Shown here: in pieces, positions 40,466 through 55,719 of the stretch
Numbering within the stretch: position 1 is the first letter of the stretch
How the letters are laid out: each line of letters opens with the position of its first letter
Origin: Alphaproteobacteria bacterium
GTDB lineage: Bacteria > Pseudomonadota > Alphaproteobacteria > MPNO01 > UBA830
Direction of reading: 5' to 3'
DNA: 64,000 nucleotides
NCBI GenBank assembly: GCA_964291215.2
Contig: OZ219790.1
Location: 544,001-608,000, forward strand
The notes under the pieces: generated by a model
The model's input: the letters and a program-made list of their open reading frames with translations, nothing else
Database searches by the model: none
What the model was told of the DNA's origin: nothing
Program-made: the position numbers and the translations under genes

Positions 40466-43303
40466 ATGCCGAAGGTCCATTTCGAAGACGCGTTCGAGGA
40501 GTTGACCGGACATCCGCCTTTTCCTTGGCAACAGAGATTATACGACAAGCATTTTGGGCGAGGTATGCTGCCCCCGGCGGTGGATATTCCCACAGGCTTG
40601 GGTAAAACCGCTATCATGGCGGTCTGGTTGCTGGCGCGGGCGGCAGGCGCACCCTTGCCCCGGCGCCTCGTCTATGTCGTCGACCGGCGGGCCGTGGTCG
40701 ATCAGGCAACCGAGTTCGCCGGGCAACTGAGGGAACGGCTGGGGGAGGACGAACGGCTTGGGCCGGTGCGATCCGCCCTCGGCCTCGGCAGCAAACGGTT
40801 GCCGATCTCCACCCTGCGCGGCCGGCACGCCGACAACCGGGAATGGATGGCTGATCCGGCGGCGCCGGCGATTGTCGTCGGCACCGTGGACATGGTAGGA
40901 TCGCGGCTACTGTTCGAAGGTTATGGTCTGTCCCGCCGGATGCGGCCCTTTGCGGCGGCGCTGCTTGGATGCGATGCCTTGGTGCTGCTGGACGAAGCGC
41001 ATCTTGTTCGCCCCTTCGAGCGCTTGCTCAAGACGATTGAAAAGGGGCGGCGGCGGGCGTTCGCGCAAGAGGCGGATGCGCAGGCGGGCGCGTTCGCCGG
41101 CCCTGCGGTCCACGATGGATTGCCGCCACCTTTCCATGTCCTGCCCCTGTCGGCCACACTGGGCCGCGAGTCCGATGGAAACCTGTTCCGCCTGAATGAC
41201 GATGATCGGAAGAACGGCACGGTCCGCGCCCGGTTGGAAGCACGCAAGAGATTGACAGTCGAGGACCTCCCGCCGGGTCTTAATCTCAATCAGGCACTTG
41301 TCGACCGGGCCTGGAACCTGATGGAGGCCGCTTGCGCAAACGCCGGACAGCCGCCTGCCGTGGCGGTCTACTGCGACCGCCGCACCGATGCCGGGAAGGT
41401 GGCGGACGATCTTCGCAAACGCGCCAGTCAAGAGCGGCCTCAGTCCGAAGTAATCCTCCTTGTTGGTGGCCGGCGGGTGCGTGAGCGGCACAAAGCCGCC
41501 GAAAAGTTGCAGGAACATGGCCTTGTCGGCGAAGCCAAAGACCTGCGCCGCACGCCCGTGTTCCTCGTCGCAACCTCCGCTGGCGAGGTCGGGGTCGATC
41601 TCGACGCCGATCACATGGTCTGCGACCTAGTGTCTTGGGAGCGTATGGTGCAGCGGCTCGGCCGGGTCAACCGGCGCGGTACGGGCGACGCGATGGTACG
41701 AGTGATCGACCAGGGCAAGCCGGACGAGAAGAAGGCGGGCGCGCTCGCCGTCGCCCGCCACGAGGCAGCGCGCAGTCTTCTTGATGCCCTGCCGCTGGGC
41801 GAGGCCGGCGAACGCCCGACCGGCCCCGGCGTCTTGGAGAACCTCGCCGCCGACCCGGCCCAACATGCACGAATCGCCGAAGCCACGACGCGAATGCCGC
41901 TTTACCCAGCGCTCACCCGCCCGCTGATCGATTCTTGGGCGATGACCGCGCTGGAACACCATGCCGGCCGGCCGGAAATCGGCCCGTGGCTGAGGGGTTG
42001 GGTGGAAGACAACGAGCCGCAAACCGCCGTGGTCTGGCGGCACCATCTGCCGCTGCACTTCCGGACGGACGGCGGCGCAGTGCAGGCGCAGGCGGAACAG
42101 GCGGTTCGGGCCTTCTTTGCCGCCGCACCGCCGCAGGCGGCGGAACTTCTGGAAACCGAGACGTCGCGAGTGGTTGATTGGCTCAAGAAGCGCGTGCGCA
42201 AGCAGTTGAAGGAATTGGATAGGGCGGCCGCGCGGGCGATCGAACCGTATCCCGCTCCCGTCGGCGACAGCGCGAACGACGAGGAAGAAACTGCCAGAGG
42301 CACGCGCCTTCTCGCGCCGCTGACCCGAAGCGGCCCCATCGCCTTTCTGGTCGACGCCGCCAACCGCCCGGCGGACGCTCTGAGCCTTGCGAAGATCGAC
42401 AGAATCCAGTCCCAGAACCTAAAAGCGCTACTTGCCGGCAAGCGGCTTGTGGTGGACGCGCGGTTCGGCGGAATCAGAAACGGCCTGCTGGACGATACGG
42501 CCAATGATTGTGCTTGTACGATTGAGGATAATTGGGGCAAGCCGGGCGATGATGGCGACGATCCAGAAGAGAATCCCTGGAACCTGAAGGTCGAGGTGTG
42601 TTCGGAAGATGCGCATAATTCCGACGGCTGGCAGGCGGTTCTGGAGGCGCCCTATTGCGTATCGGCGGAGGGCGAGACCTGGTCCCGGCTGATCATCTCG
42701 AAGCGCCGCGGCACCGGCGAGAGCGAGGACGCCCGGGCGATGGCACGCAAGGCCCAACGCCTTGACGAGCATCAGGAATGGGCGGAAAAGGAAGCCGCGC
42801 GTATCGCCGATGCGCTCGACCTCCCGGAGGCCGACAGGGCCATGCTGACCGCCGCTGCCCGCCATCACGACGACGGCAAGACGGCGAAACGCTGGCAGGA
42901 GGCCTTCAACGCGCCCCAAGACTGGCACGATGGTGGACCCTATGCCAAGACAACGGGGCCTTTCAATCGCCAGCGGCTGAACGGCTACCGGCACGAATTC
43001 AAGTCGGTGCTCGACGCCGAGAGGGTTGGCCTCGACGGCCTCGACCGTGGCGACCCGCGATTCGAACTGGCGCTGCACCTGATCGCCGCGCATCACGGCC
43101 GCGCCAGGCCCGGCATCGGCATCGAGGGCTACGACGAGGAGCCGCCGAGCGCGGCAGAACAAGCCGCGCGCGCGATTGCACTGCGCTTCGCGCGCCTGCA
43201 ACGGGAGTGGGGACCCTGGGGTCTCGCCTGGTGGGAGGCACTACTGCGCGCCGCCGACCAGGCGGCCTCGCGGCGGCTCGACGACGGAGAGGGGGACGCA
43301 TGA
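40466..43303 (+). CDS. cas3: Type I-G Cas3 (SF2 helicase with C-terminal HD nuclease)
   Basis: PTGLGKT, DEAH, SAT, QRLGRVNRRG; C-terminal HHDDGK, YRHE, AAHHG, RAAD. Confidence 0.96.
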   Translation: MPKVHFEDAFEELTGHPPFPWQQRLYDKHFGRGMLPPAVDIPTGLGKTAIMAVWLLARAAGAPLPRRLVYVVDRRAVVDQATEFAGQLRERLGEDERLGPVRSALGLGSKRLPISTLRGRHADNREWMADPAAPAIVVGTVDMVGSRLLFEGYGLSRRMRPFAAALLGCDALVLLDEAHLVRPFERLLKTIEKGRRRAFAQEADAQAGAFAGPAVHDGLPPPFHVLPLSATLGRESDGNLFRLNDDDRKNGTVRARLEARKRLTVEDLPPGLNLNQALVDRAWNLMEAACANAGQPPAVAVYCDRRTDAGKVADDLRKRASQERPQSEVILLVGGRRVRERHKAAEKLQEHGLVGEAKDLRRTPVFLVATSAGEVGVDLDADHMVCDLVSWERMVQRLGRVNRRGTGDAMVRVIDQGKPDEKKAGALAVARHEAARSLLDALPLGEAGERPTGPGVLENLAADPAQHARIAEATTRMPLYPALTRPLIDSWAMTALEHHAGRPEIGPWLRGWVEDNEPQTAVVWRHHLPLHFRTDGGAVQAQAEQAVRAFFAAAPPQAAELLETETSRVVDWLKKRVRKQLKELDRAAARAIEPYPAPVGDSANDEEETARGTRLLAPLTRSGPIAFLVDAANRPADALSLAKIDRIQSQNLKALLAGKRLVVDARFGGIRNGLLDDTANDCACTIEDNWGKPGDDGDDPEENPWNLKVEVCSEDAHNSDGWQAVLEAPYCVSAEGETWSRLIISKRRGTGESEDARAMARKAQRLDEHQEWAEKEAARIADALDLPEADRAMLTAAARHHDDGKTAKRWQEAFNAPQDWHDGGPYAKTTGPFNRQRLNGYRHEFKSVLDAERVGLDGLDRGDPRFELALHLIAAHHGRARPGIGIEGYDEEPPSAAEQAARAIALRFARLQREWGPWGLAWWEALLRAADQAASRRLDDGEGDA

Positions 43304-54610: not shown

Positions 54611-55719
54611 GCCGCCCGCTCTACAACGATGCGCATTCGGACCCAAAAGCCTGCCCCGACGGTGCACATGCCGGCCTCTGGTTCGACAAGTTTTGCAACA
54701 CCTGGGGAGACGACGACGATAACTGGGCCATGTCGGCGGAAAAGAAGCTTTGCTGGATCAAATCCGTCGCCGGGAAGCCGGTCGGCGACCGGACGCACAT
54801 TGGCGAAAATGCCCGGCGGCAGGCGCGCATGGTCGCAAGCCTGGGCGGCTGCTTCGCGGTGTTCGCGGCGGAATCGCGCTTCGTGACCGGACTGGGCCGC
54901 AGCCATCCGGTCGAGAACGGCTTCGCCTGGCACCCCGTGCTGGGGACGCCGTATCTGCCGGGCAGTTCGGTCAAGGGCCTGCTCCGGGCGTGGGTGAAGC
55001 GGGACGCCGAACCGTGCCCCGATCCCGAAATGCGGGATCGTGTGTTCGGGAAGCGCGATCGGGCGGGCAGCGTCTGTTTCCTCGATGCCGTTCCCATCTG
55101 CCCGGTGCGGCTGGCCGCAGATGTCATGACCCCGCACCATGCCGGCTGGACCATCGACAAGCCGCCGGGCGATTGGCGCTCCCCCACCCCGATTCCCTTT
55201 CTCGTCACGGCGGAAGAGGCGCCGTTTCTCTTCGGCTTCGCGCCGCGCGCGCCCCTGGACGACGACGATCTCGGCACCGTCTTCGGATGGCTGTGCGAGG
55301 CCCTCGAATGGGCCGGCGGCGGCGCGAAAACGGCGGTCGGCTACGGCCGGTTCCGCCATGACGAGGGGCGGACCCGCGATCTGGCGCAGGCACTGGAAGA
55401 CGAGGAGCGCGCACACCGCGAAGCGCAGGAGCGTCGGCGGCTCGAAGAGACTCCCGAAGAACGCTGGTATGTGGAGGTCGAGGGCCGATCGGAAGCCGAG
55501 GTCCTCGAACTGGTACGGATCCATCTCGAAAAGGAACGCCTCACCGATCCCGACGAACGCCGGGCCTTCGCGCACACCGTCTCGACGCTGCATCCGGATT
55601 GGGTCAAGGGTTGGCGCCGTGGAGACCGCAACGACCGAGGTACCAATATCGGGCGCAAGAAACTGAAGGAGCGCGCACGTCTCCTCGACGAGGCACACTC
55701 GGAGAGCGGTTCGCATTGA
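54607..55719 (+). CDS. cmr6: Type III-B Cmr6
   Basis: GTPYLPGSSVKG, DVMTPH, PIPFL, GAKTAVGYG. Confidence 0.95.
   Translation: MSRPLYNDAHSDPKACPDGAHAGLWFDKFCNTWGDDDDNWAMSAEKKLCWIKSVAGKPVGDRTHIGENARRQARMVASLGGCFAVFAAESRFVTGLGRSHPVENGFAWHPVLGTPYLPGSSVKGLLRAWVKRDAEPCPDPEMRDRVFGKRDRAGSVCFLDAVPICPVRLAADVMTPHHAGWTIDKPPGDWRSPTPIPFLVTAEEAPFLFGFAPRAPLDDDDLGTVFGWLCEALEWAGGGAKTAVGYGRFRHDEGRTRDLAQALEDEERAHREAQERRRLEETPEERWYVEVEGRSEAEVLELVRIHLEKERLTDPDERRAFAHTVSTLHPDWVKGWRRGDRNDRGTNIGRKKLKERARLLDEAHSESGSH

What the first reader, a model, noticed from the sequence alone, without database searches (positions are those of the whole stretch)
40466..55719. Single 11-gene I-G plus III-B operon sharing one array, one adaptation module and no stand-alone Cas6
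Seen: cas3, cas8-like, csb1, csb2, csx1-like and cmr1-6 all overlap or abut (ATGA/GTGA overlaps, a 3-bp gap before csb2, TAATG at csb2/csx1, csx1 overlapping cmr1), leaving no intergenic room for a promoter. The only Cas6 fold in the window is in Csb2. Established: Csb2 processes I-G crRNA to an 8-nt 5' handle; type III complexes use 8-nt handles; crRNA sharing is known for I-F with III-B. Inference: Csb2 feeds AUUGAAGC-tagged guides to both complexes, giving Cas3 DNA cleavage plus RNA-triggered cOA signalling as a backup. I cannot confirm novelty without a search.
Basis: partly seen in the sequence, partly recalled or inferred. Interest (0 to 1): 0.8.

Follow-up and report, generated by a model that had tools for sequence, protein, structure and literature searches.

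The report
Hybrid type I-G/III-B CRISPR operon
This bacterium carries DNA-cutting and RNA-sensing CRISPR machines in one unbroken run of eleven genes beside a single guide array, and both likely draw their guides from one processing protein, an arrangement already catalogued in other bacteria, here with an unusually long processing protein that has two predicted guide-processing domains.

Summary
Observation confirmed. Eleven intact genes (cas3g, cas8g2, cas7g, csb2, csx1, cmr1-6) overlap or abut exactly as described, beside divergent cas4/1-cas2 and a 98-repeat array ending ATTGAAGC. Six Cas6 family searches found no stand-alone cas6 in the 99%-complete genome; the only other array belongs to a Cas9 locus. 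Csb2 most likely feeds both complexes (0.8; inferred, not assayed).

The idea is not new: a myxobacterial survey lists three I-G/III-B hybrids, Haliangium Cmr1-6 plus Csb2 and a mini-array gave immunity in E. coli, and I found six more tandem loci.

Only the last keeps the glycine-loop histidine (118 of 120 homologs), so it is the likely cutter. This long form mostly occurs without Cmr, so it is not a Cmr adaptation; the scan noted it before on other DNA (e1-7666761). The same operon (15.3 kb, 85% identical) lies in a genome of another family, so it likely moved as one unit. A spacer-strand test was not robust. New variant of a known kind; interest 0.35.

The parts
30100..37216 (-). CRISPR array: 98 repeats of 36 nt (GTATCCGGGGCGCTTGCGCCCCGGCCTCATTGAAGC), 97 spacers, degenerate trailer repeat at 30100
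   Evidence: 8-bp hairpin at nt 5-24 with a 12-nt 3' tail
37217..37474 (-). leader between cas2 and the first repeat; weak sigma70-like match (9 of 12) at 37249-37221
   Evidence: function inferred
37475..37768 (-). cas2 (I-G type)
   Evidence: TIGR01573, PDLC01756 Cas2g
37781..39523 (-). cas4/cas1 fusion (Cas4g/Cas1g)
   Evidence: NF049935, 753.6 bits against cut-off 560; start read
40197..40226 (+). promoter-like site TTGACA-18-TATCAT (11 of 12), 240 nt before cas3; candidate operon promoter
   Evidence: 4 sites found against 1.8 +/- 1.4 in shuffles; not conserved in G300
40466..43303 (+). cas3g helicase-nuclease, 945 aa; Walker A, DEAH and C-terminal HD motifs present
   Evidence: TIGR02621 E 3.8e-186; motifs
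43300..44187 (+). cas8g2 (csb3), 295 aa
   Evidence: TIGR04106 E 1e-67
44184..45215 (+). cas7g (csb1), 343 aa
   Evidence: TIGR02570 E 1.6e-36
45219..47435 (+). three-domain csb2, 738 aa: Cas5-like (about aa 1-235), Cas6 D1 (aa 236-498; glycine loop with Tyr489, no His), Cas6 D2 (aa 499-727; glycine loop with His717)
   Evidence: TIGR02165 matches twice; D2 matches Cas6b 4Z7K Z 10.8, rmsd 3.5, 179 aligned; D1 matches Csf5 6H9H Z 9.4, rmsd 4.0, 181 aligned, and other Cas6; residue counts
47435..49213 (+). csx1-type effector, 592 aa, CARF-HEPN-CARF; D128-x-T130-x-G132 and HEPN R385-N386-H390 invariant; C-terminal CARF of untested role
   Evidence: PDLC01840 E 3e-132; 46-sequence alignment
49197..50381 (+). 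cmr1, 394 aa
   Evidence: TIGR01894
50378..52276 (+). cmr2/cas10, 632 aa, no HD domain, GGDD cyclase motif intact at aa 403
   Evidence: TIGR02577; aligns from aa 5 to HD-truncated P. furiosus Cmr2
52273..53394 (+). cmr3, 373 aa
   Evidence: PF09700 E 2.4e-64
53391..54209 (+). cmr4, 272 aa, Asp26 aligned with P. furiosus Cmr4 Asp26
   Evidence: TIGR02580; catalytic role of Asp26 recalled
54206..54610 (+). cmr5, 134 aa
   Evidence: PF09701
54607..55719 (+). cmr6, 370 aa
   Evidence: TIGR01898

Best explanation
An intact type I-G module and an intact type III-B module lie in one gap-free run of eleven genes beside a single I-G-type array, and Csb2 likely cuts the array transcript into guides that likely load into both complexes. 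Shown: gene content, overlaps, intact motifs, one class 1 array, no stand-alone cas6 found, two Cas6 folds in Csb2. Inferred: one promoter before cas3 drives all eleven genes; Cas4/1-Cas2 adds spacers with an I-G PAM; the C-terminal Cas6 domain (His717) cuts each repeat after nt 28, leaving the 5' tag AUUGAAGC; Csb2 keeps the 3' hairpin, which leaves the tag free. Some guides would assemble with Cas7g, Cas8g2 and Cas3g to destroy DNA. Others would be captured by Cmr, which cuts target RNA and, having no HD domain, acts only through cyclic oligoadenylate (probably cA4) on the Csx1 RNase, whose extra CARF domain may switch the signal off. The III-B half is a mobile cassette from a lineage that habitually borrows I-G processing.
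For: Junctions and families. Six Cas6 searches negative in a 99.3%-complete genome; the only other array is type II; the three RAMP-family matches in the genome all lie in this locus. Repeat geometry equals the published Csb2 substrate; Csb2 binds the 3' hairpin and not the 8-nt handle. Cmr1-6 plus Csb2 plus a mini-array gave cA3-dependent immunity in E. coli, and that organism's III-B locus has no array listed while its I-G array ends ATTGAAGC. The same operon is in G300, another family: one 15,297-nt alignment at 85% from cas3 start to cmr6 end, with no TIGR01877 match. Of 26 annotated loci with related Cmr4, 14 show an array and 13 of those end TTGAAGC; 3 carry cas7g-csb2 directly before cmr1 and 4 carry a Csb2-type gene without cas7g seen; none of 85 scanned ORFs had a canonical Cas6 among its listed hits. 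In 301 genomes of another phylum, 23 of 37 with Cmr5 have Csb2 against 43 of 264 without (kin not independent). Catalytic motifs intact in both halves.
Against: Nothing was measured for this locus: no transcript, no bound crRNA. The passages read of the Haliangium work show no minus-Csb2 control and do not give the repeat used. A preprint maps B. animalis Csb2 cleavage 5 nt from the repeat's 5' end and reports that Csb1 also cuts, so neither the 8-nt tag nor Csb2's monopoly is universal. Tight hairpin binding (KD 43 nM) could hold guides in Cascade. The excess of mRNA-complementary spacers expected if Cmr uses the array was seen with one model (131 of 223 against 73 of 169, p 0.003) but not with a simpler model and cleaner controls (126 of 223 against 61 of 123, p 0.26); the window alone was 55 of 95 (p 0.15). 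That His717 equals the catalytic His of T. sulfidiphilus (H503) or B. animalis (H520) rests on position near the C-terminus, not on an alignment with those proteins.
Confidence: 0.8

Rival explanations
1. Csb2's two Cas6 domains divide the work between the complexes: His-less D1 anchors the hairpin in Cascade while D2 cuts and releases guides to Cmr.
For: D1 and D2 fall in different Csb2-Cas6 lineages (97/97 support). D2 groups with His-type domains, which include the Cas6-only genes standing before csx1-cmr1 in L020, L049 and L055, the same gene order as here. A 293-aa protein with intact D2 and only a remnant of D1 has the same longest-contig length as a Csx1 homolog (P0242 and P0128). One three-domain csb2 lies beside a Cas10 module (L129).
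Against: The long form mostly occurs without Cmr: 0 of 7 closest loci have cmr genes in their flanks; 0 of 5 of those genomes match this Cmr2; 0 of 5 three-domain genomes in the phylum sample have a Cmr5 match; only 5 of 120 long Csb2 share a contig length with the 120 best Csx1 hits (only 46 of the 120 lie on contigs of 30 kb or more). Other hybrids use ordinary two-domain Csb2. The tree has long branches that meet (L072 with L109) and does not place D2 closer to the Cas6-only genes than to full-length His-type Csb2.
Confidence: 0.12
2. Guides for Cmr come from another activity (moonlighting Cas7g/Csb1, a host RNase, or an undetected divergent Cas6), not from Csb2.
For: Csb1 RNase activity is reported in B. 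animalis. The Cas6 HMMs miss Csb2's own Cas6 domains, showing limited sensitivity. Several close csx1-cmr cassettes have no processing gene in the flanks examined (L021, L023, L030, L094).
Against: T. sulfidiphilus Cas7 did not cut the repeat. The Haliangium construct listed cmr1-6, csb2 and an array, with no cas7g. Cas6-only Csb2 genes recur in Cmr loci without cas7g.
Confidence: 0.07
3. The III-B cassette is a passenger that landed behind csb2 and receives no guides.
For: The closest I-G relatives lack it; the cassette also occurs alone among restriction and other defence genes; transposase remnants flank the locus; the spacer-strand signal is not robust.
Against: All seven genes are intact with catalytic motifs in two genomes of different families at 67-87% protein identity; start and stop codons are interlocked at every junction; I-G/III-B tandems recur with unrelated Csb2 and Cas8g types.
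Confidence: 0.06

Closest known systems
Haliangium ochraceum III-B Cmr fed by Csb2 (10.1101/2023.06.23.546230)
   Same: Cmr1-6 with Csb2 as the supplied processing enzyme gave target-dependent cOA signalling in E. coli.
   Different: There the III-B and I-G loci are about 4.9 Mb apart (PMC11237760 Data Set S2) and the effectors are cA3-activated proteases; here one interlocked operon with a CARF-HEPN-CARF RNase and a three-domain Csb2.
Myxobacterial Hybrid(I-G,III-B) loci (PMC11237760, Data Set S2)
   Same: 3 of 7 listed hybrids join I-G and III-B genes; the 2 with a listed repeat end ATTGAAGC.
   Different: Catalogued by computation only in the passages read; gene order and Csb2 length were not visible to me (figure not held).
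Type I-G of Thioalkalivibrio sulfidiphilus (PMC9638904) and Bifidobacterium animalis (10.1101/2022.08.19.504415)
   Same: Cas3, Cas8g, Cas7, Csb2, Cas4/1, Cas2; 36-nt repeat; for T. sulfidiphilus a cut 4 nt past the stem giving an 8-nt handle.
   Different: Their Csb2 has two domains (B. animalis 545 aa); here 738 aa with a second Cas6 domain. No Cmr in their I-G operons as described in the passages read.
I-F/III-B crRNA sharing and Cmr plus Cas6f chimeras in Marinomonas (PMC5576922)
   Same: A III-B module uses type I crRNA as a PAM-independent backup; chimeric loci pair cmr genes with the type I processing enzyme and array.
   Different: The partner is I-F with Cas6f, not I-G with Csb2; MMB-1 III-B also has its own arrays and adaptation genes.

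Membership tests
Type I-G CRISPR-Cas | Cas3g with helicase and C-terminal HD nuclease | tested here: met
   TIGR02621 over cut-off; motifs
Type I-G CRISPR-Cas | Cas8g large subunit and Cas7g/Csb1 | tested here: met
   TIGR04106 and TIGR02570 over cut-off
Type I-G CRISPR-Cas | Csb2 fusion of Cas5 and Cas6 | tested here: met
   TIGR02165; folds; carries an extra Cas6 domain
Type I-G CRISPR-Cas | Cas4/1 fusion, Cas2 and 36-nt repeat ending TTGAAGC | tested here: met
   NF049935; G-type tail motif in PMC11237760
Type I-G CRISPR-Cas | Csb2 cleaves the repeat to an 8-nt handle; TTN PAM | not testable with these tools
   Geometry fits; no credible protospacer found
Type III-B CRISPR-Cas | Cas10/Cmr2 plus Cmr1, 3, 4, 5, 6 | tested here: met
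   Cmr3 is below the TIGR01888 cut-off but far over Pfam PF09700's
Type III-B CRISPR-Cas | Active cyclase motif (GGDD) and Cmr4 catalytic Asp | tested here: met
   (sequence only)
Type III-B CRISPR-Cas | N-terminal HD nuclease of Cas10 (optional in III-B, recalled) | tested here: not met
   Protein aligns from aa 5 to the HD-truncated Cmr2; PF12469 Cmr2_N starts at aa 6
Type III-B CRISPR-Cas | Own cas6 and own array (often lacking in III-B, PMC5576922) | tested here: not met
Csx1 CARF-HEPN effector | N-terminal CARF and HEPN R-N-x3-H motif | tested here: met
Csx1 fused to a ring nuclease | C-terminal domain degrades cOA | not testable with these tools
   CARF-like by PDLC01840; no Pfam match for that part; not folded
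Shared-array type I/III hybrids | The same crRNAs load into both complexes | not testable with these tools
   Indirect spacer-strand test inconclusive

The most novel reading that the evidence does not exclude
The three-domain Csb2 is a fusion of two different Cas6 lineages that routes guides: the His-less middle domain clamps the hairpin in Cascade while the His717 domain, descended from the stand-alone processing gene of a III-B cassette, cuts and hands guides to Cmr. The 11-gene block then travels as one self-contained DNA-plus-RNA immunity unit that plugs into any resident I-G array.
Probability: 0.12. Interest if true: 0.65.

Novelty: new variant of a known kind. Interest (0 to 1): 0.35.

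Why it matters
The hybrid itself extends a known theme (type III backup fed by type I guides) to a compact one-operon form. It is a convenient test bed for an open question: how one hairpin-retaining enzyme splits guides between Cascade and Cmr. One construct, one array and two separable Cas6 domains make that directly testable. The three-domain Csb2 is common (318 clusters at 50% identity match D2 at E<=1e-30) and I found no description of it in the papers searched.

Tried and rejected
Separate cas6 or type III array in the genome: not found. Extra Cas6 domain as a Cmr-specific adaptation: rejected as a general rule. D2 as a simple internal duplication of D1: disfavoured; BLAST finds only the glycine-loop stretch and the domains fall in separate clades. 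Stand-alone D2 relatives: most of the 17 of 38 short hits read are fragments of the long protein. Protospacers: no credible match in the own genome or in 50,697 phage records (best E 0.6), so no PAM or strand evidence. Spacer-strand bias by codon models (accuracy 0.72-0.74): significant in the first run, not in the second after dropping L004 (genome not checked for Cmr2) and L128 (genome has Cmr5 elsewhere); three other hybrids pooled showed 55 of 116. No RNA holder listed for the locus. No solved-structure sequence match for Csb2 or Csx1. The promoter-like site is not conserved in relatives. A 9-nt match to the repeat's end at the cmr6 stop is only partly kept in G300. PMC12993439 held nothing on I-G or Cas6. 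No complex prediction was run.
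Full report
Observation. The eleven reading frames are all present and uninterrupted. They match cas3g (TIGR02621), cas8g2 (TIGR04106), cas7g (TIGR02570), csb2 (TIGR02165), a CARF-HEPN-CARF Csx1 (PDLC01840) and cmr1-6. On the other strand lie a cas4/1 fusion, cas2 and an array of 98 repeats and 97 spacers, one spacer occurring twice. A near-consensus promoter-like site sits 240 nt before cas3; the scan found 4 such sites against 1.8 expected, so this is a candidate only. 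Co-transcription is inferred.

No other processing enzyme. The genome is 99.3% complete in 2 contigs. Six Cas6 family searches gave 0 matches at E<=1, each ringing in 1 to 7 of 14 control genomes. TIGR02165 rings only within csb2. The three RAMP-family matches all lie in this locus. A de novo search found one other CRISPR-like array, which belongs to a Cas9-cas1-cas2 locus. Limit: these Cas6 models do not detect Csb2's own Cas6 domains.

Both halves look functional. Cas3g has its Walker A, DEAH and HD motifs. Cmr2 has GGDD and no HD domain, so the III-B half can act only by RNA cutting and signalling. Cmr4 keeps Asp26 (its catalytic role is recalled). Csx1 keeps R385, N386 and H390 in 46 of 46 aligned sequences. 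The repeat folds into an 8-bp stem at nt 5-24. A cut after nt 28 is 4 nt past the stem and leaves AUUGAAGC, the geometry reported for T. sulfidiphilus Csb2, which keeps the 3' hairpin and does not bind the handle (PMC9638904, section 22). That leaves the tag free for Cmr (inference).

Csb2 has three domains. It is 738 aa; most Csb2 frames in the phylum sample are about 480-610 aa. Residues 499-727 match the Cas6 half of TIGR02165 a second time. In the predicted model (pLDDT 72) residues 1-237 match Cas5 and 501-721 match Cas6b (Z 10.8); the middle domain folded alone (pLDDT 76) matches Csf5 and Cas6 proteins (Z 8.0-9.4). Several short Csb2 carry His in the C-terminal glycine loop. In 120 long homologs that position is Tyr or Phe in D1 (120 of 120) and His in D2 (118 of 120). 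The catalytic His of B. animalis Csb2 lies 25 residues from the end (H520 of 545), and H503 of T. sulfidiphilus is C-terminal, so D2 is the likely cutter. I could not align those two proteins, and some short Csb2 lack this His (L072, L109), so D1 may still cut by other residues. A 25-row tree puts D1 with the His-less short forms and D2 with the His-type forms (97/97; long branches meet, so with caution): a fusion of two lineages rather than a duplication.

The long form is not tied to Cmr. The 7 loci of long-Csb2 relatives (41-75% identity) have no cmr genes in their flanks (two have under 8 kb downstream), and 0 of 5 of those genomes searched match this Cmr2. In 301 genomes of the phylum of G426, 5 of 66 Csb2-positive genomes have the long form (the centre genome included) and none of the 5 has a Cmr5 match, although one lies beside a Cas10 module. 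The family is broad: 318 clusters match D2 at E<=1e-30.

The operon moves as a unit. Of 400 other genomes of the class, 4 match this Cmr2 at E<=1e-10. One, G300, from another family, carries all eleven genes in the same order, in one 15,297-nt alignment at 85% running from the cas3 start to the cmr6 end. Its cas4/1, cas2 and array lie about 12 kb downstream, are only about 75% alike in DNA, and use a different repeat with the same ATTGAAGC end. The window's Cas2 and Cas4/1 are closer to those of L005 (94% and 85%), a locus without cmr. So the interference block and the adaptation-array block have different nearest relatives. Transposase remnants lie beside the array. In the window's own family, 1 of 25 other genomes has any Csb2, a short unrelated one. 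Matching contig lengths suggest two to three further carriers, unverified.

The pairing is recurrent. Of 80 metagenome loci with related Cmr4, I mapped the 43 of 5 kb or more, annotated 26 and scanned 85 ORFs, nearly all drawn from 160 unassigned candidates. Three have cas7g-csb2 directly before cmr1 (L072, L077, L091; the last two with the Csx17-type Cas8g). Four have a Csb2-type gene with no cas7g seen (L020, L049, L055, L088), three of them Cas6-only genes just before csx1. None of the 85 listed a canonical Cas6 among its top five hits. Of the 14 with an array, 13 end TTGAAGC. Several close cassettes stand alone among other defence genes. In the phylum sample 23 of 37 Cmr5-positive genomes have Csb2 against 43 of 264 Cmr5-negative (tallied by hand; p 1e-8, overstated because kin are not independent), and 3 have csb2 and cmr5 within 15 kb on one strand (G454, G460, G585; in G460 no other I-G gene was recognised).

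What is in print. 10.1101/2023.06.23.546230 (passages, first fifth of the text, section 6) expressed Haliangium cmr1-6, csb2 and a two-repeat array in E. coli and saw target-dependent immunity, six orders of magnitude with the native effectors; I saw no minus-csb2 control, and its extended data were not available to me. PMC11237760 (passages and supplement searches) lists 3 Hybrid(I-G,III-B) loci among 7 hybrids, and shows the Haliangium III-B locus without an array and its I-G array ending ATTGAAGC. PMC5576922 (passages) shows III-B using I-F crRNA and describes Cmr-Cas6f chimeras. PMC8482600 (passages) reports array sharing between types I and III at scale. 10.1101/2022.08.19.504415 (abstract, passages, sections 3 and 5) maps a different cut site and reports Csb1 RNase activity, which counts against treating the 8-nt tag as universal. 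10.1101/2024.09.24.614671 (passages) defines Csx1 as cA4-activated and notes a Csx1-ring nuclease fusion. Eight searches listed no paper whose title or passages read describe a three-domain Csb2; none was worded for that feature alone, and the library lacks most subscription journals.

An indirect test failed to settle use by Cmr. If Cmr uses the array, spacers should lean towards mRNA-complementary. A dicodon model gave 59% for this operon's two arrays against 43% for I-G-only arrays (p 0.003), but a simpler model with two doubtful controls removed gave 57% against 50% (p 0.26), and three other hybrids pooled showed no lean. I count this as inconclusive.

Verdict. What is added here is the one-operon form that has likely moved between families, and a Csb2 with two Cas6 domains of different origin, only one keeping the likely catalytic His. 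New variant of a known kind; interest 0.35.

Noticed in passing
G000:C2:2063981-2069600 (L001:5982-11600): Intact-looking type II locus: Cas9 1046 aa, cas1, cas2 and a 17-repeat array; II-C-like by gene content.
   Followed up: partly
L122:9953-11359 (G488): A 468-aa gene made of the two Cas6 domains (D1-like and D2-like) with no Cas5, beside cas3 and a separate ordinary csb2.
   Followed up: partly
L129 (G494:C95): Three-domain csb2 and an ATTGAAGC array divergent from a 1218-aa Cas10 and a Cmr1-like gene, with no cas3 or cas7g seen in 15.7 kb.
   Followed up: partly
P0242 and P0128: A 293-aa protein with intact D2 and only a remnant of D1 has the same longest-contig length (2,093,083) as a Csx1 homolog; possibly a long Csb2 reduced to its last domain. 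Context not seen.
   Followed up: no
L128:7250-10632, L127, L049:393-4189, L119, L121: Loci with two csb2-type genes (two full-length, or one full-length plus a Cas6-only copy).
   Followed up: no
window 55711-55722: The cmr6 stop lies inside a 9-nt match to the repeat's 3' end; only five of the bases are kept in G300. Chance or remnant.
   Followed up: partly
window 31746-31782 and 32260-32296: One spacer occurs twice in the array (spacers 68 and 75).
   Followed up: no
window 29250-29863, 39595-40017, 55907-56437, 460-3830: Mobile-element debris around the locus: Mutator-family transposase fragments, an unassigned transposase-like fragment (resemblance recalled), a DUF6788 gene, and duplicated IS66-like stretches also found near the G300 operon.
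   Followed up: partly
window 5917-6060: 12-nt tandem repeats inside an ORF with no Pfam match (5073-6254, minus strand).
   Followed up: no
L031:16551-17966; L055:539-2146; L131, L132: Related Cmr loci carry varied effectors: CARF-Lon, an RtcR-like CARF-AAA-HTH regulator, CARF-RelE, CARF5.
   Followed up: no
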